Positions 27,386 through 46,115 of a stretch of DNA of 64,000 nt are shown piece after piece. Where the stretch lies: NCBI GenBank assembly GCA_964559225.1, contig CAZLGA010000005.1, positions 185-64,184 on the forward strand, read 5' to 3'. The notes below the pieces were generated by a model that was not told the origin of the DNA, did no database searches, and worked only from the letters and a program-made list of their open reading frames with translations. This stretch comes from an uncultured bacterium (GTDB lineage Bacteria; Hydrothermota; Tepidihabitantia; SM23-42; JAOAFX01). Each line of letters opens with the position of its first letter. Position 1 is the stretch's first letter. The position numbers and the translations under genes were made by a program.

Positions 27386-28288
27386 TCAAAGTGCCTTTTC
27401 TTTTAAAAAACTTTTGTTCCAGTCATCACAGATTTCATTACGATTAGCAATAGAAATACCATGGATTGTAATTCGCATTTCTCTTTTTATCTGTTCTAAT
27501 ATTTTAATCATATCGGAAAACCCCCACAGATCAAATTCTAACTGGATATATTTCTTTTTGAATTTACTGAAAATATCCGCGGGAATCACATACTTTTTTA
27601 ATAATCTCTTCAATTCATTGGGTCGCATACGCGTTGTAATTGCGAGATGAATATGAGCAAAATTTTTTATTAGACGCCAGTTGATATTAGGGAAAATTGA
27701 AAATACACCCTGTCTATTTTTGCGATTCTGCATTAATCTCGCCAGTTGAACATCCGCATTGTTTGAGGGATTTTCAATTATCTCATAGATTCTTGGAAAA
27801 TTAATCTTTGAACGTAGCAGATGATAAATCAATTGCCATTCTTCCTTGGTCAATTCATAGGGCACAGGTATGTTATATTCAGCAATCTTATAAATTTCTA
27901 CATACTTAACACCAAAAGTTTTATTCAACAATCGGTAGCAGTGTTTCAAATCTCTTGCATAGAAAAAATATGAATAGGATGGGAGTATACCGTGCGGGAT
28001 TGTTGTATTGACAATCACCTCTTCGGTAAGAGGATATGTTTTTGGAATCTCTGGTTCAATATCAGCATCAACAAATGCACAGCCACGATACCATTTACCA
28101 CCCACAATCGCAGGAATGAATAATTTTATGCCGTAACCCTTTATCAATCCGTGCTCTTCAAAATTCTGGATACGAATGAAAATTTCATCCTGTCTGATGT
28201 GGAATTTTTTGATGATTTCATCAATCGGCACATAGCCCTGTGATTCAAGATGGCGTAAAATCTTTAAATCAATCGGATCAATAATCAC
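27386..28288 (-). CDS. tandem Lrp/AsnC-like winged-helix domain protein (putative regulator)
   Basis: The N-terminal DLKILRHLESQGYVPIDEIIKKFHI HTH resembles the AsnC-type. A second winged-helix-like repeat lies mid-protein. Confidence 0.35.
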   Translation of the reverse strand: MIIDPIDLKILRHLESQGYVPIDEIIKKFHIRQDEIFIRIQNFEEHGLIKGYGIKLFIPAIVGGKWYRGCAFVDADIEPEIPKTYPLTEEVIVNTTIPHGILPSYSYFFYARDLKHCYRLLNKTFGVKYVEIYKIAEYNIPVPYELTKEEWQLIYHLLRSKINFPRIYEIIENPSNNADVQLARLMQNRKNRQGVFSIFPNINWRLIKNFAHIHLAITTRMRPNELKRLLKKYVIPADIFSKFKKKYIQLEFDLWGFSDMIKILEQIKREMRITIHGISIANRNEICDDWNKSFLKEKAL

Positions 28289-28333
28289 AATCCATTATAT
28301 TCAAATTATTTAAATAGTCAATATTTTTCTTGT

Positions 28334-29083
28334 CTACGACTTAGTAATACAGTATCTTTTGCCCTTATATCTGGGCATTGAAGAATAATCATCAATACAA
28401 TCTATTATAACCCCTCCATTTGATCTAATAAAATCATTTAATACACTCTCTTTTATCCAGTACATATCCTTTATTCCCCAGGTCTGATAGCGCAATTTTT
28501 TATATAAATGCCTGAGCGGCGCAGGTATGATAAAACTTACAAACCTCCTTACCTTGTTTTTAATTCCAATGACATTAGTAGTGACCTGGAAGATAATAAC
28601 TCCATTTTTTTTAATCACTCTCAAAAAATCCTTAATATAACCCAGTGTTAATTTAGGTGGCAGATGCTGAAAAACAATATTGGAGTAGATAAAATCAAAA
28701 ACATCATTCTTGAAGATCCTTAAATCCGAAGTGCAATTTAGAATATATGAACACCTTTCTCGGTATTTATTATGTCCACGGGCGATTTGAAGCATACCCA
28801 ATGCAATATCAATGCCAATACATTCTTCAAAATATTTACACAATGCCTGCGTCAGGCGCCCAACTCCGCAACCAAAATCAAGCGCACGATTGAATTCAAT
28901 ATTTAGGTTCAGACCTTTTAGATAATTCATAACCGAATCTATCTCAGCATGGCCAGTTTGATACAAATCATCTATTTTCCAGCGATTATCTTTTTTTTCA
29001 GGAATAGGAAGAATAGCCCATAATGGGTCCTTTTTAGCAAATTCTTCCCAGTTTCTCCGTGCGTCCTTTATACATTTTTCCAT
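28334..29083 (-). CDS. class I SAM-dependent methyltransferase
   Basis: Motif I LDFGCGVGRLT. There are no DNA-MTase D/NPPY motifs. Confidence 0.7.
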   Translation of the reverse strand: MEKCIKDARRNWEEFAKKDPLWAILPIPEKKDNRWKIDDLYQTGHAEIDSVMNYLKGLNLNIEFNRALDFGCGVGRLTQALCKYFEECIGIDIALGMLQIARGHNKYRERCSYILNCTSDLRIFKNDVFDFIYSNIVFQHLPPKLTLGYIKDFLRVIKKNGVIIFQVTTNVIGIKNKVRRFVSFIIPAPLRHLYKKLRYQTWGIKDMYWIKESVLNDFIRSNGGVIIDCIDDYSSMPRYKGKRYCITKS

Positions 29084-29111
29084 CGTTTTTCAATGAATGG
29101 AATTGTGTAAA

Positions 29112-29590
29112 TTACTTTATTTCGTATTTGCCAAATTCTTCGGGTTTGGTGCTACGCAATTTGTTTTTGAGTTCTTCTTCTACACTATCACCCTTAAATA
29201 CTATTCCATTTTTTTCCATTATAGTATCTTCAACGAAGATTGTAGCATTGGAACGAAGGGCAAGGGCAATAGAATCCGAAGGCCGTGCATCAATAGTAAT
29301 CATTTTACCATCAGCTTCAAGATAAATCCGTGCATAATAGGTCTCATTCTTTAAGTCATTGATAATTATTTTTATAATCTTGCTTTCCAGTGCATCAAGT
29401 AGTATTTTCATAAGATCGTGGGTAAGGGGTCTTGCCGGTTTTATACCCTCCAGACACATTGCAATCGCCATTGCCTCATTATCGCCAATCCATATAGGTA
29501 AGGTCCTCTCTCCATATCTTTCTTTCAGTAGAACAACATAATTGTGAAACTGTTGGTCTTCAACAACACCGCTGACAAATACTTCTAAAA
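29112..29590 (-). CDS. bifunctional nuclease family protein (DUF151/BFN)
   Basis: The upstream reading frame translates VVLLKERYGERTLPIWIGDNEAMAIAM...ARPSD, the DUF151 core. No ATG, GTG or TTG start lies upstream of the ORF-track M at 29471. A possible ATT start is preceded by GGAGGA. Confidence 0.55.
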
Positions 29591-30037
29591 TTTTTCCTCC
29601 TCCACAACAACTAATTTTAATAACGCAGTTACTTGTTGTGGTAACCGGATTTTAACATCATAAATACCCGGATGCTTTATTGGTTCATCAAGCTCAATTT
29701 GTTTTTTATCTATCTCAATATTTTCTGCCTTTAATAATTCTACAATATCCCTGGGATTAATAGAACCAAACGATTTACCATCTATGCCAGTTTTGATCGT
29801 GGTCTTTACACTTAAATTGTTTATTTTCTCAGCAATCTGTTCGCTCATTTTTCTCACTTTTTCTATGCCTTGAGAGAAGTGGCGCTTGGTCTTTTCAAGA
29901 CCTCTTATATTGCCCGCAGTAGCAGGTATCGCAAGTTTATTAGGAATAAGATAATTTATTGCGTACCCATCCTTAACTTCAACAACTTCATTCTTTTTAC
30001 CTAATTTTGTAACATCCTTAGTAAGAATCACTTTCAT
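29585..30037 (-). CDS. rplI: 50S ribosomal protein L9
   Basis: MKVILTKDV..LGKKNEVVEVKDGYAINYLIP. Confidence 0.9.
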   Translation of the reverse strand: MKVILTKDVTKLGKKNEVVEVKDGYAINYLIPNKLAIPATAGNIRGLEKTKRHFSQGIEKVRKMSEQIAEKINNLSVKTTIKTGIDGKSFGSINPRDIVELLKAENIEIDKKQIELDEPIKHPGIYDVKIRLPQQVTALLKLVVVEEEKF

Positions 30038-30039
30038 TG

Positions 30040-30243
30040 TTATTTTATTTCGTATGGTAAAAGGGCAATCTCACGGGCGCGTTTGATTGCCTGAGCGAGT
30101 TTTCGTTGATGTTTGGCACATAAACCAGTCAATCGCGCGGCAAGTATCTTACCACGTTCGTTTATATAACCTTTTAAAAGTGCAGTATCTTTATAATCTA
30201 TTACCTTTACATTGGCCCCACACATCCGACATTTTCTTGCCAC
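30040..30243 (-). CDS. rpsR: 30S ribosomal protein S18
   Basis: CRMCG...[18 protein letters not shown]. Confidence 0.9.
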
Positions 30244-30261
30244 TGTTTCTCTCCTTTTTGA

Positions 30262-30696
30262 TTAAAATGGAGTATCGATATTATCTTCTTCCTTAATTTC
30301 TTCCTCGGCCTCAAACGGAGTATTACCACCTGTCTCACTATTAGATTCAGGCATATCCAGAAATTGTATCCTGTGCGCAACTACCTCAATTACTGATCTC
30401 TTCTCTTTATTATCCGTTTCCCATTGCCGTGACCTTAATCTACCTTCAATGAGAACAGCGCTACCTTTTTTAAGGAAGTCATTAACCAGTTCAGCCTGCC
30501 TTCTCCAGGCAACAATTGTCACAAAAAGTGTCTCCTCATGAAACTCTCCCGATTCCCGATTTTTAAATCTGCGCGTAGTAGCAATTCTGAATGAACAAAC
30601 CGGAGCTCCTTTCTGGGTATAACGCAGTTCAGGATCAGCAACAAGACGGCCGATGAGATGGACCGAATTAAGATATCCCAACCTTAGTTGATTCAT
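30262..30696 (-). CDS. ssb: single-stranded DNA-binding protein
   Basis: OB fold NSVHLIGRLVADPELRYT and an acidic C-terminal DTPF tail. Confidence 0.9.
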   Translation of the reverse strand: MNQLRLGYLNSVHLIGRLVADPELRYTQKGAPVCSFRIATTRRFKNRESGEFHEETLFVTIVAWRRQAELVNDFLKKGSAVLIEGRLRSRQWETDNKEKRSVIEVVAHRIQFLDMPESNSETGGNTPFEAEEEIKEEDNIDTPF

Positions 30697-30986
30697 CTTT
30701 TCTTCTCCCTAAAAATTATCATAAACCTCAACACATTACTGCGATGTTTTAATTTATCCTTAATACTTTCAATCTTATCAGGAGAAATAGAAAACTCATA
30801 ATTCACATAATAACCCTCTTTCTGTTTTTCAACCGGATAAGCAAGAACCTTTTTTCCCAGTAAGTGATGTCGGACAGTGCCAGCACCGCTTGTCTTTATA
30901 ATCTCTTCAACAGCACCGGCTTCTTTTTCTAATTGTTCATCCTTTAGTCCCGGATGAAATATGAACATTGCCTCGTAGTTTCTCAT
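30693..30986 (-). CDS. rpsF: 30S ribosomal protein S6
   Basis: MRNYEAMFIFHP. Confidence 0.9.
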   Translation of the reverse strand: MRNYEAMFIFHPGLKDEQLEKEAGAVEEIIKTSGAGTVRHHLLGKKVLAYPVEKQKEGYYVNYEFSISPDKIESIKDKLKHRSNVLRFMIIFREKKR

Positions 30987-31846
30987 AATATTTTATGTTC
31001 CTTTAATAAATTTGTGGGGGTAACCTTATTGTATTCAAGACCCCATACTTCAACTGGCAACCCAAATGCCATAGCCATTATCTGGCTGAAATAAAATACC
31101 GGAATAAACCGATGGTCGGAATGAATACCTGCAATCTTAGATTGAAAATTATCAAGATTATAATGGCAGACTGGGCATGAAGTAACAATTGCCTCAGCAC
31201 CTTTTTCCCATGCATTCTTTAAAATTTTATAAGAAGCCTCAAGGGCTGCCTCAGGCGAATTAACAATTAGGTATGAACCGCAGCATTCAACCTTTAGCGG
31301 AAAATTAACAGGCTGTGCACCCATCAATTGAACGAATTCTTCCATAATCGTCGGTGCCTCTGGATCATCAAATTCAATTTCGTCCTTTGGTCTCAATAGA
31401 TAACACCCATAATAACATCCCAATTTTAAATTTCCAAGATTCTTTTTCAAACCCTTTTTGAACTCTTCTTGATGTTCTTTAATAAATTCAAAAGGATGTA
31501 TTATCTTTTGTCCACCATTGTAATCTTCACCAAGGTGTTCATTTATAATTTTCAGGGTATCAGGGTCATTTTTGAAAATGTAGTTCGCCCTCTTCAAAGT
31601 ATTGTAGCAAATAGAACAGGGCACAAGCAAGGCGCCATTTTCTTTCTGGGCTCTGGTCAGAATCCGCAGGGGAGCAATCAAGGACATTTTGTTGTCCCGG
31701 GCAAGAGTAAATGTAGTCCCGCAGCAGTACCAGTTTGCCAGTTCCTTTAACTCCATACCCACAGCATTGAATGTTGCCTTAATAGAATCATTAAGCACCT
31801 TTGCCTTTGTATACAAATCGCAACCAGGATAATATGATATCTTCAT
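30983..31846 (-). CDS. hdrB: heterodisulfide reductase subunit B-like protein (two CCG domains)
   Basis: Two cysteine-rich CCG domains (YYPGCDL...NWYCCGT and LGCYYGCYL...VECCGSY...CPVCH). Confidence 0.8.
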   Translation of the reverse strand: MKISYYPGCDLYTKAKVLNDSIKATFNAVGMELKELANWYCCGTTFTLARDNKMSLIAPLRILTRAQKENGALLVPCSICYNTLKRANYIFKNDPDTLKIINEHLGEDYNGGQKIIHPFEFIKEHQEEFKKGLKKNLGNLKLGCYYGCYLLRPKDEIEFDDPEAPTIMEEFVQLMGAQPVNFPLKVECCGSYLIVNSPEAALEASYKILKNAWEKGAEAIVTSCPVCHYNLDNFQSKIAGIHSDHRFIPVFYFSQIMAMAFGLPVEVWGLEYNKVTPTNLLKEHKIL

Positions 31847-31848
31847 AA

Positions 31849-32244
31849 TCAGTAAGAATATTTATATAATGCGCTCATCAATACAAGGGGATGTGCATCT
31901 TTAAGCAATTCTTTATCAATTTTATCAATATCAATAAGCTGTTCCTTAGCGCGCAGGTGAATCGTCCGCACCGCCTCCATTATTCGCGGTATATCCACGC
32001 CCCGCGGGCACCTTGACTCACACACCAGACAGGCAGCACAGAACCACGGGCTCTGTGCCTTCAAAACATCTTCTTTATAACCGAGTTGAATATATCTTAT
32101 TATACGGTTTGGTGGTTCATCCATGAACTCGGCAAATGGACAACCTGCTGTGCATCGTCCACACTGATAGCAATCAGCAATACTCTGCTGACTTATTTCC
32201 TGTATTTTCAGAATAAAGTCCTTATCGCTTGAGAGTTTTCTCAT
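31849..32244 (-). CDS. hdrC: heterodisulfide reductase subunit C-like 2x[4Fe-4S] ferredoxin
   Basis: Two CxxCxxCxxxCP motifs (CYQCGRCTAGCP and CAACLVCESRCP). Confidence 0.75.
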   Translation of the reverse strand: MRKLSSDKDFILKIQEISQQSIADCYQCGRCTAGCPFAEFMDEPPNRIIRYIQLGYKEDVLKAQSPWFCAACLVCESRCPRGVDIPRIMEAVRTIHLRAKEQLIDIDKIDKELLKDAHPLVLMSALYKYSY

Positions 32245-32277
32245 AAGTATATGATTATATTTAAAAATATCTTAATG

Positions 32278-33411
32278 TCAAGTGATTTTTAGCAAATGGG
32301 AAAAACTCTTTAAACAGAAATAAAATAGGTCTGAATGAAAATCAAAATTTATCTTCGGAATCAATAATTCAACCCAGAAACGGTGACCCTTTACAAAGGT
32401 AAATAATCGCTCAATTGTGTGGTCGCTTATCTTTGAAGCAACCCGGCGAATTTTTTTACCAATATCAAGTTCTGATGATAATGCAGAACGCCAGGTTAGT
32501 TCATATTCATATAATGATTTACCATTTTTTAAAGCCTTAAAGATATAATCAACCGCAATGTCTGCACACAAAAGCCCTGTAAAAATACCACCACCGGTAG
32601 TTGTCTTAACCTGACCCGCAGCCTCACCAACCGCGAGGATTCTTCCCGAGACACTTTTTTTGATTGGACCATACGCAATCGGTTTTACACATATCTCATT
32701 CTGGTCTAATATGCTTTGTCTAAACAACAGTCTGTTTTTTAAAAATCTCATCAGGAAGGTTTTGCCTTCTTTTTCAAGAATCATTCCTATCCGCGCTTTA
32801 TTTTCATTGATTGGCACTACCCAGCCGAACGAAGCAGGGATATATTTCTGACTTATGTATATCTCAATATTATTAGGTGCAACCTTTTTGAGCAATTCTA
32901 TCTGCGAACCATAAAGGAATTGAGGCGGTACACCAAGACCGATTTTTTTCTGCAATTGATAATTTACCCCGGTCGCGATAATAACAAATTTGCCAAAACG
33001 ACTGACACCATCGGCACTTATTTTATAATATTTACGCTCTTCTTGTATCACCTTCACATTCACTCCAAGGCAAAATTCTACGCCATCTCTCTTCGCAATC
33101 TCTGAAAGTCGGTGGTCAAACAATTCCCTATCAACAACAAAGGCAAATGGTTTTGGTGTAAGATATTCAAGCTTCTGATTTTCGGGTGAAACAAAAGTGA
33201 AAGATTTTATCTCGGTTAGAATAGAATCGGTCGGAAGATGAAATCTCTTAAAAGATTCTGTGCTTATGACGCCAGTGCATATTACACCTTCCCCAATTTT
33301 TTTCTTCTGCTCAAAAACACATACTTTGAAACCCTTTTTAGCAAGCCTAAGTGCTGCATAAGAACCTACAGGTCCTCCACCTATTACAATTACATCATAT
33401 AGATTTTTCAT
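32278..33411 (-). CDS. geranylgeranyl reductase family FAD-dependent oxidoreductase
   Basis: Rossmann GxGxxG region DVIVIGGGPVGSYAALRLAKKG and a GGR-family C-terminus. The likely start is MKNLYD at 33411, which appears leaderless because the promoter -10 overlaps the upstream ATG at 33429. Confidence 0.75.
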   Translation of the reverse strand: MKNLYDVIVIGGGPVGSYAALRLAKKGFKVCVFEQKKKIGEGVICTGVISTESFKRFHLPTDSILTEIKSFTFVSPENQKLEYLTPKPFAFVVDRELFDHRLSEIAKRDGVEFCLGVNVKVIQEERKYYKISADGVSRFGKFVIIATGVNYQLQKKIGLGVPPQFLYGSQIELLKKVAPNNIEIYISQKYIPASFGWVVPINENKARIGMILEKEGKTFLMRFLKNRLLFRQSILDQNEICVKPIAYGPIKKSVSGRILAVGEAAGQVKTTTGGGIFTGLLCADIAVDYIFKALKNGKSLYEYELTWRSALSSELDIGKKIRRVASKISDHTIERLFTFVKGHRFWVELLIPKINFDFHSDLFYFCLKSFSHLLKIT

Positions 33412-33420
33412 AACCACAAA

Positions 33421-33464
33421 ATTATACACATTAGTTTGAATATGTCAATCCATCGATTTAAATC
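33421..33464 (-). promoter_or_regulatory. promoter on the minus strand (TTGACA-16-TGnTATAAT) with upstream palindromic box GATTTAAATC, for the GGR-hdrC-hdrB operon
   Basis: -10 at 33426-33421, -35 at 33448-33443, and the palindrome at 33455-33464 lying 6 nt upstream of the -35. Confidence 0.55.
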
Positions 33465-33588
33465 AAAAATTAATATAGAATAACGCGTAATCTTCTTCAG
33501 CCTCTTTTATAAAATCGTTAAAGGTTTGGCGGTTCGCTGCCCATTTCTTTATATGATTTGGGTTGTTGGTTTTTTATATTACGACGCC

Positions 33589-34581
33589 TTATTCTGAAAT
33601 CTGCTCCAGAGATTCCCGGGGAATTGCATCAATGCTGATATCAGAAGGTCCAAATTTTTTGTATCTATACTGTCCTGCCAGTGCAATCATCGCCCCGTTA
33701 TCGGTGCAAAATTGTGTATCCGGGATAAACAATTCAAAACCCATTAATTCGGCAAGGTTTAGAAATTTTTCTCGGAGTCTTTTATTAACTGAAACACCTC
33801 CAACAATTCCAAAATATTTGACTTTTGTATACTCTATTGCCCGCCTTGAAACCCGAATCAAATGCTCTAAGGCTGACTCCTGAAAAGAAGCAGATAGATC
33901 ATCTTTCTTATATCTTTTGTTATCACGGATATAATACAAAACTGCCGTCTTTAATCCTGCATAACTAAAATTAAAGCCCTTGGGTTTTGGTATAGGAAAT
34001 TTAATCTTTTCTGGATTGCCATCTTTTGCTGATTTTTCAATGTAGGGACCACCAGGGTATGGTAAATTTATCATTTTTGCAACTTTGTCAAATGCCTCGC
34101 CACAGGCGTCATCAAGTGTCCTGCCCAGTGTCTTATACCTGAATTCTTTTTCAACAAAGATAAGTTCAGTATGTCCTCCAGAAACGAGTAATACAAGATA
34201 AGGATACCTGGGAACCTTTTTATTGAAGAACAACCCGTAGATATGCCCTTCAAGATGATTCACACCAATGAATGGCCTTTTCAAACCAATTGATAAAGAC
34301 TTTGCAAAAGAAAGTCCGGTTAACAGCGAACCCAATAAACCCGGACCACGGGTTGATGAGACCAAATCAATTTCATTCAATCCAATTCCGGCAGTTTCAA
34401 ATGCAATCCTGGTCAATGGCAATAACACTTTTATATGATTTCGCGCTGCGAGTTCAGGCACAACACCTCCATATTTTGTATGTGCAATCTGAGATGCTAC
34501 AATATTTGCAAGAACCTTATTGTCTTTTATAATTCCAATTGATGTCTCATCACAAGATGTTTCTATACCGAGGGTGACCAT
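33589..34581 (-). CDS. tsaD: tRNA N6-adenosine threonylcarbamoyltransferase TsaD
   Basis: MVTLGIETSCDETSIGII, the Kae1/TsaD ASKHA fold, and the GGV(S/A)AN region. Confidence 0.9.
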   Translation of the reverse strand: MVTLGIETSCDETSIGIIKDNKVLANIVASQIAHTKYGGVVPELAARNHIKVLLPLTRIAFETAGIGLNEIDLVSSTRGPGLLGSLLTGLSFAKSLSIGLKRPFIGVNHLEGHIYGLFFNKKVPRYPYLVLLVSGGHTELIFVEKEFRYKTLGRTLDDACGEAFDKVAKMINLPYPGGPYIEKSAKDGNPEKIKFPIPKPKGFNFSYAGLKTAVLYYIRDNKRYKKDDLSASFQESALEHLIRVSRRAIEYTKVKYFGIVGGVSVNKRLREKFLNLAELMGFELFIPDTQFCTDNGAMIALAGQYRYKKFGPSDISIDAIPRESLEQISE

Positions 34582-34638
34582 ATTTATAATCGTCCATTAA
34601 AAATGGACGCTACACATTAGATAAATTGTTAAAAATTT

Positions 34639-35235
34639 CTATTTTTTCTTCTTGCCCTTTTTCTGTTTCTTTTCTTTCTTTTCTTTTTTTGCAATCTGCT
34701 TTTTCTCTTTCTTGGTCTTTTTTTCAACCTCCGGCTTTGTTTCTTTTTTGGGTAATTCTTTTTCCTTCTTTTCTTCTTTCTTCGGTTTTTCTTTTTTAGG
34801 TTTTTCTGCCTTCTTCTCTTTATCGGGCAACCAGCGATGTTCAATCAATTTTCTGCGCTGGTCAATCTTCTCGGGTTCACTCTTCTCAATCAATTCCAAT
34901 ATTGCCATTTCTGCACCATCGCCAAGCCGTGGACCAAGTCGGTAGATCCTTGTATATCCACCCTGACGATTGGCAAATTTAGGGGCAATTTCATCACAGA
35001 GAATCTTCACAAGTTTATGGTCTGGGATGAACCGATAAATAAATCTCTTTGTTGCAACTGTGTTCTTTTTTGCATATTCAATCAGGTGCTCGGCAAGTCG
35101 CCTTGCTTCCTTTGCCTTTGGCAGTGTGGTTTTAATTTTTTCAAAGATAAACAGGGCACGACATAAATTCCTTAAAAGCGCCAGACGATGTGCCTTTTTC
35201 CTCCCCAATTTTTTTACTTTTTTACCGTGTCTCAT
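34639..35235 (-). CDS. rplQ: 50S ribosomal protein L17 with ~75 aa lysine/glutamate-rich C-terminal extension
   Basis: L17 core MRHGKKVKKLGRK..HRLALLRNL. A KKEKKE low-complexity tail follows, extending to 198 aa. Confidence 0.9.
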   Translation of the reverse strand: MRHGKKVKKLGRKKAHRLALLRNLCRALFIFEKIKTTLPKAKEARRLAEHLIEYAKKNTVATKRFIYRFIPDHKLVKILCDEIAPKFANRQGGYTRIYRLGPRLGDGAEMAILELIEKSEPEKIDQRRKLIEHRWLPDKEKKAEKPKKEKPKKEEKKEKELPKKETKPEVEKKTKKEKKQIAKKEKKEKKQKKGKKKK

Positions 35236-35256
35236 CGCAACTCCATATCTTGATTA

Positions 35257-36333
35257 TTATACATCTTCTTTCAAATACCTATCAACATCCATTTCAAGGT
35301 GTAAACCCAAATTGTGCAATATTTTTTCCAATTCTTTGAGAGATTTTCTACCGAAATTATCATAGGTAAGTAATTCTTTACCACTCCTACGCACGAGGTC
35401 CCCGATCGTTTTAATATTCTCATTCTTAAGACAATTTGATGTTCTCACCGAAATTTCAAGTTCGTCAATACTCCTCTTCAGAATTTCCCTTATCCTGCGA
35501 TGTTCTGCATCAAGCTGTTCACGGGATGTTATGATGGGTTCAATATATAACTGGAGCCCTTTTTTGTTAATCGTATTTCTTATCTCATCAATCATCTTTT
35601 GGGTCGTATCATCAATAAACATAGATAGTTGTCTTTCACCCATGTCGACAAAGAACTTTAAATGATGTCTCAGGATGTTCGCTGCCTCAACCACACATTC
35701 AATCGGTGTCTTTGTGCCATCAGTCTTAACCTCAAGCACAAGGTGGTCATAATCCGTCTTTGTTCCTACTCTTGTGTTACGCACATCAAAGTTTACGGAC
35801 AAAACTGGTGAGAATATAGCATCAATATAAATCGTACCCACAGGCATATCTGCTTTTTTCAATAACTCCGCAGGAACAAATCCCCTGCCTAATTCCGCCG
35901 TCATCTCCATTGTAAAATTTACCTTCGCATCGGTCACAGACAAAATTTTCTGTTTCGGATTGACAATAAGGAAGAGTGGATTTTTTTCAATATCCTCAGC
36001 AAAGTAATCCTTCTTTCCTTTTACCTTCAAAACAAGTGTTGTAGGCTCGGTACCGAACAATTTTACACGTATCTTCTTGAGATTCAAAATTATCTCAACA
36101 ACATCTTCATATACACCAGGGATGGTTGAAAATTCTTGTGTCACATTTGATATTCTGACATTTGTAATAGCAGCACCCTGTATTGAAGAATAGAGCACAC
36201 GGCGCATTGCATTCCCCAGCGTAATGCCAAATCCCCTTTCTAGGGGTGAAATTGTAAATCTCGTAAAAACATCGGATACTGTTTCTTTATCAATTTCAAT
36301 GCCTTTAGGCGTTACAAATGGTTTCAATAGCAT
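35257..36333 (-). CDS. rpoA: DNA-directed RNA polymerase subunit alpha
   Basis: N-terminal dimerisation domain and a C-terminal alphaCTD (LELSVRTSNCLK). 358 aa. Confidence 0.95.
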   Translation of the reverse strand: MLLKPFVTPKGIEIDKETVSDVFTRFTISPLERGFGITLGNAMRRVLYSSIQGAAITNVRISNVTQEFSTIPGVYEDVVEIILNLKKIRVKLFGTEPTTLVLKVKGKKDYFAEDIEKNPLFLIVNPKQKILSVTDAKVNFTMEMTAELGRGFVPAELLKKADMPVGTIYIDAIFSPVLSVNFDVRNTRVGTKTDYDHLVLEVKTDGTKTPIECVVEAANILRHHLKFFVDMGERQLSMFIDDTTQKMIDEIRNTINKKGLQLYIEPIITSREQLDAEHRRIREILKRSIDELEISVRTSNCLKNENIKTIGDLVRRSGKELLTYDNFGRKSLKELEKILHNLGLHLEMDVDRYLKEDV

Positions 36334-45984: not shown

Positions 45985-46058
45985 TGGGCGAAACCCGATT
46001 TGAACGGGTGACCTTCTGCTTGTAAGGCAGACGCTCTCACCATCTGAGCTATTCGCCC
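45985..46058 (-). tRNA. tRNA-Val (anticodon TAC)
   Basis: Reverse complement GGGCGAATAGCTCAGATGGTGAGAGCG-TCTGC-CTTACAA-GCAGA...GGTTCAAATCC..TTCGCCCA forms a cloverleaf with a 7-bp acceptor stem. Confidence 0.85.
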
Positions 46059-46071
46059 TTTAGACTTACTA

Positions 46072-46115
46072 TTATAATCAAAAGTTTATTTTTGTCAATG
46101 TGCCGATTTAAATCA
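46072..46115 (-). promoter_or_regulatory. minus-strand promoter TTGACA-16-TATAAT for tRNA-Val with upstream palindromic box GATTTAAATC
   Basis: -10 is the reverse complement of 46072-46077, -35 the reverse complement of 46094-46099, and the palindrome lies at 46106-46115, 6 nt upstream of the -35. Confidence 0.6.

What the first reader, a model, noticed from the sequence alone, without database searches (positions are those of the whole stretch)
30983..33470. Three-gene redox module: geranylgeranyl-reductase-family flavoprotein plus HdrC-like and HdrB-like subunits, with its own leaderless promoter
A GGR-family FAD oxidoreductase (383 aa, GxGxxG) is followed on the same strand by a 2x[4Fe-4S] HdrC-like protein and a two-CCG-domain HdrB-like protein. 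The stops and starts abut (33 and 2 nt gaps), so this is almost certainly an operon. It sits between tsaD and rpsF.

HdrB/HdrC units normally partner with HdrA, succinate/fumarate-type flavoproteins, or glycerol-3-phosphate/lactate/glycolate dehydrogenase flavoproteins. Pairing with a GGR/FixC-like flavoprotein points to an uncharacterised disulfide- or quinone-linked reductase. Possible substrates include heterodisulfide, polyprenyl or another electron-sink molecule in an anaerobe. The promoter carries the palindromic upstream box.
Basis: partly seen in the sequence, partly recalled or inferred. Interest (0 to 1): 0.6.

Follow-up and report, generated by a model that had tools for sequence, protein, structure and literature searches.

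The report
Prenyl reductase gene beside hdrCB operon
The three genes are real, but they are most likely two separate units: a reductase that saturates the lipid carrier used to build cell-surface sugars, and two leftover subunits of a heterodisulfide reductase that head a ribosomal-protein operon; they are probably not a new three-part enzyme.

Summary
On the minus strand of a candidate-division WOR-3 genome lie a geranylgeranyl-reductase-family (GGR) flavoprotein, an HdrC-like 2x[4Fe-4S] protein and an HdrB-like two-CCG protein, between tsaD and rpsF. One correction: the flavoprotein starts at ATG 33411 (377 aa), not GTG 33429.

The operon inference fails. The 33-nt GGR-hdrC gap is itself a perfect TTGACA-N16-TATAAT promoter, 9 nt before the hdrC ATG. 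The GGR stop codon sits inside its -35 box. That promoter is conserved in about 20 loci, including relatives with no GGR upstream.

In other WOR-3 lineages the orthologous hdrC-hdrB occupies the same site as hdrC-hdrB-hdrA-mvhD-rpsF. One contig carries Bac_transf-GGR-hdrC-hdrB-hdrA, so the adjacency also exists with HdrA present.

Across 89 GGR loci the downstream neighbour changes by clade (rsmI-like, lpd, hdrCB, rpsF). The recurring partner lies upstream: a polyprenyl-phosphate sugar-phosphate transferase, often 4-20 nt away.

Best reading (about 0.6): a polyprenyl-phosphate reductase gene abuts an independently promoted hdrCB-rpsF operon. A true GGR-HdrCB thiol- or quinol-driven prenyl reductase is not excluded (about 0.2).

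The parts
33455..33464 (-). Perfect 10-nt palindrome GATTTAAATC (within TTTTTGATTTAAATCG), 6 nt upstream of the -35 box of the GGR promoter
   Evidence: The same box at the same 6-nt spacing precedes the tRNA-Val promoter at 46105-46114 and the GGR promoter in L012. It is not enriched in the window when one mismatch is allowed.
33421..33448 (-). Sigma-70-type promoter of the GGR gene: TTGACA, 16 nt, TATAAT, then 9 nt to the ATG (leaderless or near-leaderless)
   Evidence: 12/12 consensus match. The same geometry is conserved in triplet-clade relatives.
32278..33411 (-). GGR-family FAD flavoprotein, 377 aa (corrected start); probable polyprenyl(-phosphate) C=C reductase
   Evidence: TIGR02032 194.6 bits, cutoff 158.8. 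The AF2 model has pLDDT 89, and the best PDB folds are 3oz2 (TM 0.80) and 3atq (TM 0.78). GxGxxG and the Cys aligned to the catalytic Cys are invariant. Subfamily members are directly preceded by Bac_transf or Glycos_transf_4 genes in 32 of 71 loci.
32254..32281 (-). Second perfect promoter filling the GGR-hdrC gap: TTGACA (containing the GGR stop codon TGA 32280-32278), 16 nt, TATAAT, then 9 nt to the hdrC ATG
   Evidence: 12/12 match, sequence. It is conserved in all triplet loci and in the hdrCBA-mvhD loci L015-L017.
31849..32244 (-). HdrC-like 2x[4Fe-4S] protein, 131 aa
   Evidence: Fer4_8/Fer4_17. TIGR03290 70.9 bits, below the cutoff of 160. Best solved relative is HdrC 8rvv_C, E 2e-16. 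All 8 Cys are invariant in 22 orthologues.
30983..31846 (-). HdrB-like protein with two CCG (non-cubane cluster) domains, 287 aa; its start is 2 nt after the hdrC stop
   Evidence: PF02754 twice. SdhE 165 bits and HdrB TIGR03288 154 bits, both below cutoff. Best solved relative is HdrB 8rvu_b, E 2e-39. All 11 Cys are invariant in 21 orthologues.
29585..30986 (-). rpsF-ssb-rpsR-rplI, same strand; the rpsF ATG overlaps the hdrB stop (ATGA), so these genes belong to the hdrC-led transcription unit
   Evidence: The same order is seen in L005-L007 and L015-L017.
33589..34581 (-). tsaD, the upstream neighbour; this neighbour is variable among relatives

Best explanation
The three genes form two functional units that are neighbours by descent.

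Unit 1 is a monocistronic GGR-family flavoprotein gene with its own leaderless promoter. It most likely reduces C=C bonds of a polyprenyl phosphate (the undecaprenyl-type glycan carrier lipid or its diphosphate precursor), giving a partly saturated, dolichol-like carrier. Its physiological electron donor is not identified.

Unit 2 starts at a separate strong promoter that fills the 33-nt gap. It comprises hdrC-hdrB, translationally coupled to rpsF-ssb-rpsR-rplI. These two genes are what remains, in this clade, of an hdrC-hdrB-hdrA-mvhD cluster that occupies the same site in other WOR-3 lineages. HdrCB keeps every cluster-binding cysteine. It most likely still works as the disulfide-reducing end of an Hdr-type complex, with an hdrA encoded elsewhere, as in methanogens where hdrA and hdrCB are unlinked.

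Shown here: gene content, both promoters and their conservation, the synteny patterns, and the family and fold assignments.

Inferred: the polyprenyl-phosphate substrate, the existence of an unlinked hdrA in this genome, and the absence of a GGR-HdrCB complex.
For: 1. A perfect promoter lies inside the GGR-hdrC gap, with the GGR stop codon inside the -35 box. It is conserved in 17 triplet loci and also in L015-L017, where the upstream gene is unrelated.

2. hdrCB orthologues (60-63% identity) sit at the same rpsF-proximal site as hdrC-hdrB-hdrA-mvhD (L015), hdrC-hdrB-mvhD (L016), or hdrC-hdrB-hdrA'/nuoEF-like/hdrA''-mvhD (L017). Eleven further HdrB orthologues share a contig with an HdrA, judged by matching contig lengths.

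3. L049 carries Bac_transf-GGR-hdrC-hdrB-hdrA. The GGR|hdrC adjacency therefore exists with HdrA present.

4. In the GGR tree the triplet loci form one clade, so a single inheritance explains them. L049 and the GGR-rpsF loci without hdr (L047/48/54) branch outside that clade.

5. The downstream neighbour of this GGR subfamily changes by clade: an rsmI-like gene (19 loci), lpd (20), hdrCB (17), rpsF (3). The upstream Bac_transf or GT4 phosphoglycosyl transferase recurs across clades (32 of 71 loci), often with gaps of 4-20 nt.

6. Standalone hdrA-ferredoxin-2-oxoacid:ferredoxin oxidoreductase loci exist in WOR-3. Their tetranucleotide composition is closest to the triplet loci (r 0.91-0.97).

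7. GGR-family enzymes are known to saturate polyprenyl or dolichyl phosphates: the Haloferax GGR and mycobacterial HepR (PMC10821996).
Against: - Within the triplet clade the GGR-hdrC junction is invariant, while the gene upstream of GGR varies (tsaD, a HEAT-repeat gene, others).
- hdrA and mvhD are never at a triplet locus. No HdrA among the 120 best hits lies on a known triplet contig, including a 293-kb one.
- HdrB and HdrC are more conserved in this clade (72-95% identity) than GGR (52-78%). They are clearly functional and need some flavoprotein partner.
- There is no terminator between GGR and hdrC, so GGR transcripts must read into hdrC.
- GGR-fold flavoproteins do dock 2x[4Fe-4S] subunits (FixC-FixX in 7koe). 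Archaeal GGRs use adjacent ferredoxins as reducers.
- The link between the standalone hdrA loci and triplet-clade genomes rests only on composition and shared datasets.
Confidence: 0.6

Rival explanations
1. The three proteins form a complex in which HdrB oxidises a thiol pair (or a quinol) at its non-cubane clusters. HdrC relays the electrons through two [4Fe-4S] clusters to the GGR FAD, which reduces isoprenoid C=C bonds. This would be a thiol(quinol):polyprenyl reductase built like thiol:fumarate reductase TfrAB or type-E fumarate reductase, with the fumarate-reducing flavoprotein swapped for a GGR. It would have been recruited after hdrA-mvhD were lost from the locus.
For: - The adjacency is conserved across a whole clade, down to 52% GGR identity, always without hdrA/mvhD.
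- HdrCB is under strong constraint, with all cluster-binding Cys retained.
- Read-through from the GGR promoter is unavoidable.
- The best NCBIfam hit of the HdrB-like protein is SdhE of methylmenaquinol:fumarate reductase (165 bits).
- CCG/NCB modules are known to feed C=C-reducing flavoproteins (TfrB, archaeal SDH).
- GGRs need an external reducer, often an adjacent Fe-S protein.
- FixC, a GGR-fold protein, binds a dicluster ferredoxin.
- In the sister clade the conserved downstream gene is another dithiol/disulfide enzyme, dihydrolipoyl dehydrogenase.
Against: - hdrC has its own conserved promoter regardless of the upstream gene.
- The adjacency also occurs with hdrA present (L049).
- Most members of the GGR subfamily have no hdrCB nearby.
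- Triplet-clade GGRs have the same length and no extra domain or clade-specific cysteine compared with lpd-linked ones.
- hdrCB is translationally coupled to ribosomal protein genes, not to GGR.
- A 33-nt junction made entirely of promoter offers almost no neutral breakpoint, so retention needs no selection for linkage.
Confidence: 0.2
2. The GGR-like flavoprotein replaces HdrA as the electron-input subunit. It oxidises NAD(P)H or another donor at its FAD and passes electrons through HdrC to HdrB, which reduces an unknown disulfide. The result would be a non-bifurcating heterodisulfide reductase.
For: - hdrA and mvhD are absent from all triplet loci.
- HdrB keeps the full set of ten catalytic-type cysteines typical of disulfide-reducing HdrB.
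- In WOR-3 and relatives the HdrCB module is plugged into varied input modules: MvhD, NuoEF-like, and a 1104-aa HdrA-GltD-like fusion.
Against: - All of those input modules still contain HdrA.
- The flavoprotein is orthologous to GGRs that sit in operons with phosphoglycosyl transferases, and it keeps the GGR catalytic Cys and cavity tryptophan. This points to a prenyl substrate, not a pure electron-input role.
- The promoter and L049 arguments above also apply.
Confidence: 0.07

Closest known systems
Archaeal geranylgeranyl reductases (digeranylgeranylglycerophospholipid reductase; Thermoplasma Ta0516m 3OZ2, Sulfolobus Saci_0986 3ATQ)
   Same: The superfamily is the same (TIGR02032 above cutoff) and so is the fold (TM 0.78-0.80). 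GxGxxG, the Cys aligned with the catalytic Cys, the cavity Trp/Pro and the GxAAxxxxxxxGGGI FAD motif are all present.
   Different: Identity is only 19-22%. It scores far below the equivalog cutoffs (NF041080 93 vs 580). The cavity motif reads PxxFxWxVP rather than PxxYxWxFP, and GD is replaced by GE. The host is bacterial, with no sign of ether-lipid genes nearby. The gene context points to polyprenyl-phosphate carriers rather than membrane lipids.
GGR-family polyprenyl/dolichyl-phosphate reductases (Haloferax volcanii GGR acting on dolichol phosphate; mycobacterial HepR acting on Z,E-heptaprenyl diphosphate)
   Same: They are GGR-family enzymes that saturate isoprene units of glycan-carrier polyprenyl phosphates (PMC10821996). 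This matches the conserved pairing of the subfamily here with phosphoglycosyl transferases.
   Different: No sequence comparison with these enzymes was run. The substrate here is inferred from gene neighbourhood only.
Methanosarcina acetivorans GGR plus its adjacent ferredoxin (arCOG00958-type 4Fe-4S reducer)
   Same: A GGR with an adjacent dicluster Fe-S protein that supplies electrons (PMC10821996). An HdrC-like protein could in principle play this role.
   Different: Here the Fe-S gene is a bona fide HdrC orthologue. It is paired with HdrB, has its own promoter, and is co-transcribed with ribosomal protein genes.
HdrABC-MvhAGD heterodisulfide reductase (5ODC, 8RVU)
   Same: HdrB and HdrC are clear homologues (E 2e-39 and 2e-16) with every cluster ligand retained. 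Orthologues in other WOR-3 lineages are clustered with hdrA and mvhD at the same locus.
   Different: There is no hdrA or mvhD in the 64-kb window. HdrC is shorter (131 vs about 185 aa). Scores fall below the equivalog cutoffs. The bacterial substrate is unknown.
Thiol:fumarate reductase TfrAB and type-E succinate/fumarate oxidoreductases (SdhE anchor)
   Same: The architecture is a CCG protein, an Fe-S relay and a C=C-reducing flavoprotein. SdhE is the top NCBIfam hit for the HdrB-like protein.
   Different: The flavoprotein here is GGR-type, not SdhA/TfrA-type. The SdhE score is 165 against a cutoff of 500. Physical association is untested and, on the present evidence, unlikely.
FixC/EtfC-FixX of EtfABCX (7KOE)
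   Same: A GGR-fold flavoprotein docked to a 2x[4Fe-4S] ferredoxin-like subunit; 7koe_C is the eighth fold hit (TM 0.69).
   Different: The FixC model scores 40.9 against a cutoff of 610. No etfAB context was seen next to the genes.

Membership tests
GGR superfamily (TIGR02032 GG-red-SF) | Profile score above the curated cutoff | tested here: met
   194.6 bits against a cutoff of 158.8.
GGR superfamily (TIGR02032 GG-red-SF) | N-terminal FAD Rossmann motif GxGxxG and a Cys aligned with the catalytic Cys47 of Sulfolobus GGR | tested here: met
   GGGPVG is present. Cys45 is invariant in 20 and in 32 homologues and aligns with the Cys of 3oz2 and 3atq.
GGR superfamily (TIGR02032 GG-red-SF) | Catalytic-cavity motif PxxYxWxFP | tested here: inconclusive
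   The motif reads P-A-S-F-G-W-V-V-P. Both Pro and the Trp are invariant, but Y is replaced by F and F by V.
GGR superfamily (TIGR02032 GG-red-SF) | GGR three-dimensional fold | tested here: met
   The AF2 model has pLDDT 89. The top PDB hits are 3oz2 (TM 0.80) and 3atq (TM 0.78).
GGR superfamily (TIGR02032 GG-red-SF) | Reduction of prenyl C=C bonds | not testable with these tools
   This needs an enzyme assay or lipidomics.
Characterised GGR equivalogs (DGGGPL reductase, BchP/ChlP, MenJ) | Score above the equivalog cutoff | tested here: not met
   NF041080 93 vs 580; TIGR02023 113.5 vs 343; NF045655 29 vs 700.
Heterodisulfide reductase subunit B | Two CCG domains, each with CX31-39CCX34-36CxxC | tested here: met
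   C9/C41C42/C77/C80 and C148/C188C189/C224/C227 are invariant in 21 orthologues.
Heterodisulfide reductase subunit B | Equivalog-level score (CoB-CoM HdrB) | tested here: not met
   TIGR03288 154 vs 345; NF041780 63 vs 450.
Heterodisulfide reductase subunit C | Two CxxCxxCxxxCP [4Fe-4S] motifs and homology to HdrC | tested here: met
   All 8 Cys are invariant. 8rvv_C matches at E 2e-16. TIGR03290 scores 70.9, below the cutoff of 160.
HdrABC complex | HdrA flavoprotein partner encoded in the genome | tested here: inconclusive
   None is present in the 64-kb window or at any triplet locus. It is present at orthologous loci in other lineages. Standalone hdrA loci exist with composition like the triplet clade. 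Whole genomes could not be scanned.
Single operon GGR-hdrC-hdrB | Same strand, short gaps and no internal promoter | tested here: not met
   The strand and short gaps are met. However, the 33-nt gap is a conserved 12/12 promoter placed 8-9 nt before the hdrC ATG at the triplet loci.
Single operon GGR-hdrC-hdrB | Gene order conserved across lineages | tested here: inconclusive
   The order is conserved in one monophyletic clade and in L049. It is absent in the lpd-linked, rsmI-linked and hdrCBA-type lineages.
TfrAB / type-E SdhABE-like C=C reductase | SdhA/TfrA-type flavoprotein, and SdhE/TfrB score above cutoff | tested here: not met
   The flavoprotein is GGR-type. SdhE scores 165 vs 500, and TfrB 27 vs 385.
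FixC/ETF-QO | FixC profile score above cutoff | tested here: not met
   NF007542 scores 40.9 vs 610. The fold similarity is secondary to that with GGRs.

The most novel reading that the evidence does not exclude
In this WOR-3 clade HdrA and MvhD were lost. The retained HdrCB pair was then recruited as the electron-input module of the neighbouring GGR. The result would be a previously undescribed thiol- or quinol-dependent polyprenyl reductase, with a TfrAB-like architecture and a GGR in place of the fumarate reductase flavoprotein. This would be the first CCG/non-cubane-cluster module found coupled to isoprenoid saturation.
Probability: 0.18. Interest if true: 0.65.

Novelty: new member of a known kind. 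Interest (0 to 1): 0.3.

Why it matters
If the main reading is right, the flagged module is not a new enzyme class. It shows that in genomes with compact leaderless promoters, a 30-40-nt gap can hold a complete promoter, so abutting genes are weak evidence of an operon.

Two by-products deserve attention:
- A large uncharacterised GGR subfamily (about 500 clusters at 50% identity) sits in operons with phosphoglycosyl transferases. This predicts partly saturated, dolichol-like glycan carrier lipids in WOR-3 and related uncultured bacteria.
- Hdr genes head the rpsF ribosomal-protein operon and are translationally coupled to it across the phylum.

If the minority reading is right, it would identify a physiological reductant system for a GGR. 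That question is still open for most GGRs. It would also add a new partner class for HdrBC-type modules.

Tried and rejected
- Whole-genome check for hdrA in triplet-clade MAGs was not possible.
- Matching 'longest contig' lengths between the HdrA and HdrB hit lists linked 11 HdrA-type loci. It gave only a weak negative for triplet contigs.
- Mining the supplement of the WOR-3 survey for per-MAG hdrA/B/C presence did not answer the question. The stored table holds only 44 subgroup-4 MAGs. In it, 23 of 25 hdrB-positive MAGs also have hdrA, but none could be mapped to the triplet clade. It did yield taxonomy (order SM23-42) for L001, L003 and L016.
- Tetranucleotide similarity suggests, but does not prove, that the standalone hdrA contigs belong to the triplet clade. 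tblastx of those contigs against the window found no shared genes.
- The palindromic box tested as a recurrent motif is not enriched with one mismatch allowed.
- The Rfam scan of 28000-36000 found nothing.
It was rerun with permitted rows.
- The idea that the flavoprotein is FixC/ETF-QO, GlpA or TfrA-like was rejected on profile scores and fold ranking.


Full report
WHAT IS THERE. On the minus strand, the ORF listing finds three consecutive ORFs:
- a flavoprotein at 32278..33429 (383 aa from GTG);
- a 131-aa protein at 31849..32244;
- a 287-aa protein at 30983..31846.

The gaps are 33 nt and 2 nt. tsaD lies upstream (33589..34581). rpsF-ssb-rpsR-rplI lie downstream, and the rpsF ATG overlaps the third ORF's stop codon (ATGA).

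FAMILY ASSIGNMENTS. Pfam and NCBIfam give the following:
- The flavoprotein belongs to the geranylgeranyl reductase superfamily (TIGR02032, 194.6 bits, cutoff 158.8). It falls far below every characterised equivalog: DGGGPL reductase, BchP/ChlP, MenJ and FixC.
- The second protein is an HdrC-like dicluster ferredoxin.
- The third is a two-CCG-domain HdrB-like protein. Its best hits are SdhE (165 bits) and CoB-CoM HdrB (154 bits), both below cutoff.

Against solved structures, the closest relatives by sequence are Thermoplasma and Sulfolobus GGRs and methanogen HdrB and HdrC. An AlphaFold model of the flavoprotein (pLDDT 89) matches those GGRs best (TM 0.80 and 0.78). FixC of EtfABCX comes next (TM 0.69). 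The homologues are almost all from candidate division WOR-3.

START CODON. All homologues begin at MK(N)xYD and are 377-379 aa. The GTG at 33429 lies immediately upstream of the -10 box of the gene's own promoter. The real start is therefore ATG 33411 (377 aa).

THE PROMOTERS CHANGE THE PICTURE. The consensus scan finds two perfect 12/12 sigma-70 promoters on the minus strand. It is leaderless and is conserved in relatives.

The second fills the 33-nt 'gap': TTGACA 32281-32276, 16 nt, TATAAT 32259-32254, then 9 nt to the hdrC ATG. The GGR stop codon TGA is part of its -35 hexamer. The TTGAC(A/T)-N16/17-TATAAT geometry is conserved in every triplet locus examined, with 8-9 nt from the -10 box to the ATG. 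A TTGAC-type -35, a TATAAT and a short spacer also occur in three loci where the gene upstream of hdrC is unrelated (L015-L017, 6-7 nt in L016/L017).

Only five such strict promoter-plus-start arrangements occur in the whole 64-kb window. The short gap is therefore a promoter, not evidence of co-transcription. By contrast, hdrB starts 2 nt after hdrC and its stop overlaps the rpsF start. The robust unit is hdrC-hdrB-rpsF-ssb-rpsR-rplI.

SYNTENY OF hdrCB. HdrB orthologues at 60-63% identity lie at the same rpsF-proximal site, but within larger clusters:
- hdrC-hdrB-hdrA-mvhD (L015);
- hdrC-hdrB-mvhD (L016);
- hdrC-hdrB plus a split HdrA interleaved with NuoE/F-like modules, then mvhD (L017).

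Comparing contig lengths between the HdrB and HdrA hit lists shows at least eleven more HdrB orthologues on the same contigs as a 650-aa HdrA or a 1104-aa HdrA fusion. The ancestral state of this locus is thus an ordinary Hdr cluster. The window's clade lacks hdrA and mvhD at that site.

SYNTENY OF THE GGR. I combined 6 genome loci, 80 metagenome loci found with a GGR alignment and the contig look-ups. This gave 89 unique GGR loci, which I classified by tblastn.

Of the 69 loci with at least 500 nt of downstream sequence:
- 17 have hdrC-hdrB;
- 20 have a dihydrolipoyl dehydrogenase (TIGR01350, 499.6 bits);
- 2 have rpsF directly.

An ORF clustering shows 19 deep-branching loci with an rsmI-like methyltransferase about 6 nt downstream.

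Upstream, 32 of the 71 loci with enough sequence have a phosphoglycosyl transferase on the same strand: Bac_transf PF02397 (19 loci) or Glycos_transf_4 PF00953 (13 loci), confirmed by Pfam. The gaps are often 4-20 nt and carry no promoter. This is the only association that crosses clades.

It points to the polyprenyl phosphate acceptor of these transferases as the substrate of the reductase. GGR-family enzymes that saturate dolichyl or polyprenyl phosphates are known in Haloferax and in mycobacteria (HepR) (PMC10821996). The subfamily is large: 502 representatives at 50% clustering with E<=1e-30.

IS THE TRIPLET A PARTNER SWAP? In a neighbour-joining tree of the GGRs, all triplet loci form one clade. 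Its sister is the lpd-linked clade, which includes genomes of order SM23-42 according to the survey's Table S2.

Outside the triplet and lpd-linked clades lie loci with Bac_transf..GGR-rpsF and no hdr genes (L047/48/54). The short contig L049 also lies there. It reads Bac_transf-GGR-hdrC-hdrB and then the first 183 residues of an HdrA, 76% identical to that of L015, before the contig ends. So a GGR gene stands next to hdrC even where HdrA is present.

The simplest history is an old arrangement [transferase-GGR][hdrC-hdrB-hdrA-mvhD-rpsF...]. Different lineages then lost or moved pieces of it. Once the GGR stop codon is embedded in the hdrC -35 box, the junction offers almost no neutral breakpoint. 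Its persistence then needs no selection for a functional link.

WHAT SPEAKS FOR A LINK. The rival cannot be dismissed, for these reasons:
- hdrA and mvhD are never at a triplet locus.
- HdrB and HdrC keep all 19 cluster-binding cysteines.
- Within the clade they are more conserved than the GGR or S6.
- GGR transcripts must read through into hdrC.
- Archaeal GGRs are served by adjacent Fe-S reducers.
- FixC, a GGR-fold protein, binds a dicluster ferredoxin.
- CCG/NCB modules feed C=C-reducing flavoproteins in TfrAB and archaeal succinate dehydrogenase.

Against this, a clade of standalone hdrA genes exists in WOR-3. Each is followed by a small ferredoxin and 2-oxoacid:ferredoxin oxidoreductase genes. 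One comes from the same metagenome assembly as two triplet contigs. The tetranucleotide composition of all three is closest to the triplet loci. Unlinked hdrA and hdrCB is also the classical arrangement in several methanogens (general knowledge of the family). I could not scan whole triplet-clade genomes, so this step remains inferred.

LITERATURE. No paper in the library combines GGR with HdrB/HdrC. The review of archaeal GGR paralogues mentions only ferredoxin and ETF neighbours. The WOR-3 genome survey reports hdrABC with mvhADG in 34 MAGs and does not mention a GGR. A 2026 preprint listing the partners of non-cubane-cluster domains does not include a GGR.

VERDICT. The genes and the leaderless GGR promoter are real. 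The 'almost certain operon' and the 'new redox module' are not supported as stated. Most likely (about 0.6) a polyprenyl-phosphate reductase gene abuts an independently promoted hdrCB-ribosomal protein operon. A genuine GGR-HdrCB reductase remains possible (about 0.2), and a GGR-for-HdrA substitution is less so (about 0.07). Each component is a new member of a known kind. Interest is modest.

Noticed in passing
window 29585-32281 (minus strand); L015 6604-11640; L016; L017: Across WOR-3, the Hdr genes (hdrC-hdrB, with or without hdrA-mvhD) sit at the head of the rpsF-ssb-rpsR-rplI operon. The last hdr gene overlaps the rpsF start codon, so redox genes are translationally coupled to ribosomal protein genes.
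   Followed up: partly
window 33455-33464 and 46105-46114; L012 2108-2120: The box TTTTTGATTTAAATCG (10-nt perfect palindrome) lies exactly 6 nt upstream of the -35 hexamer at three promoters: the GGR promoter, a tRNA-Val promoter (tRNA at 45985-46058, minus strand), and the GGR promoter of a distant relative. It may be an UP-element or a regulator site.
   Followed up: partly
L001, L003, L004, L008, L024-L027, L029, L030, L036, L039-L043, L046, L065, L071, L075, L077: In the sister clade, which includes order SM23-42 genomes, the GGR orthologue is consistently next to a dihydrolipoyl dehydrogenase gene. The gaps are variable and the orientation is sometimes inverted. This is a second dithiol/disulfide enzyme as a GGR neighbour, and its meaning is unknown.
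   Followed up: partly
L003 7364-9149; L025; L049 2-1553; L079/L082 and about 30 other loci: This GGR subfamily forms tight two-gene units (gaps 4-20 nt) with phosphoglycosyl transferases (Bac_transf or Glycos_transf_4). This predicts saturated polyprenyl-phosphate glycan carriers in uncultured bacteria.
   Followed up: yes
L017 7861-13213: An HdrA is split in two. Its N-terminal part is fused to a NuoE-like 2Fe-2S domain. Its C-terminal part is fused to a HoxU/NuoG-like N-terminus. A NuoF-like gene lies between them, and mvhD follows. This looks like an apparently NADH-linked Hdr variant. Separately, 1104-aa HdrA fusions with a GltD-like NAD(P)-binding part occur next to hdrCB in related lineages (P0263-P0289).
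   Followed up: no
L098 5001-9947; L099 5001-8016; L100 6001-12884: A conserved standalone cluster consists of hdrA, a 98-aa ferredoxin and 2-oxoacid:ferredoxin oxidoreductase subunits, with no hdrCB nearby. Its composition is closest to the triplet-clade loci.
   Followed up: partly
L099 2369-3508 (minus strand): A second, distant GGR paralogue (25-27% identity to the window's GGR). It has the canonical YxWxFP motif and a strong GGR_cat hit, and it lies 1.5 kb from the standalone hdrA.
   Followed up: no
window 34639-35235 (minus strand): Ribosomal protein L17 is 198 aa and carries a C-terminal tail of about 75 residues rich in lysine and glutamate. The extended length is conserved in relatives (196-201 aa in L005 and L006).
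   Followed up: no
L060-L094 (19 loci): In the deep-branching members of the GGR subfamily, the gene about 6 nt downstream is an rsmI-like methyltransferase. The downstream neighbour is thus a housekeeping gene that changes from clade to clade.
   Followed up: partly
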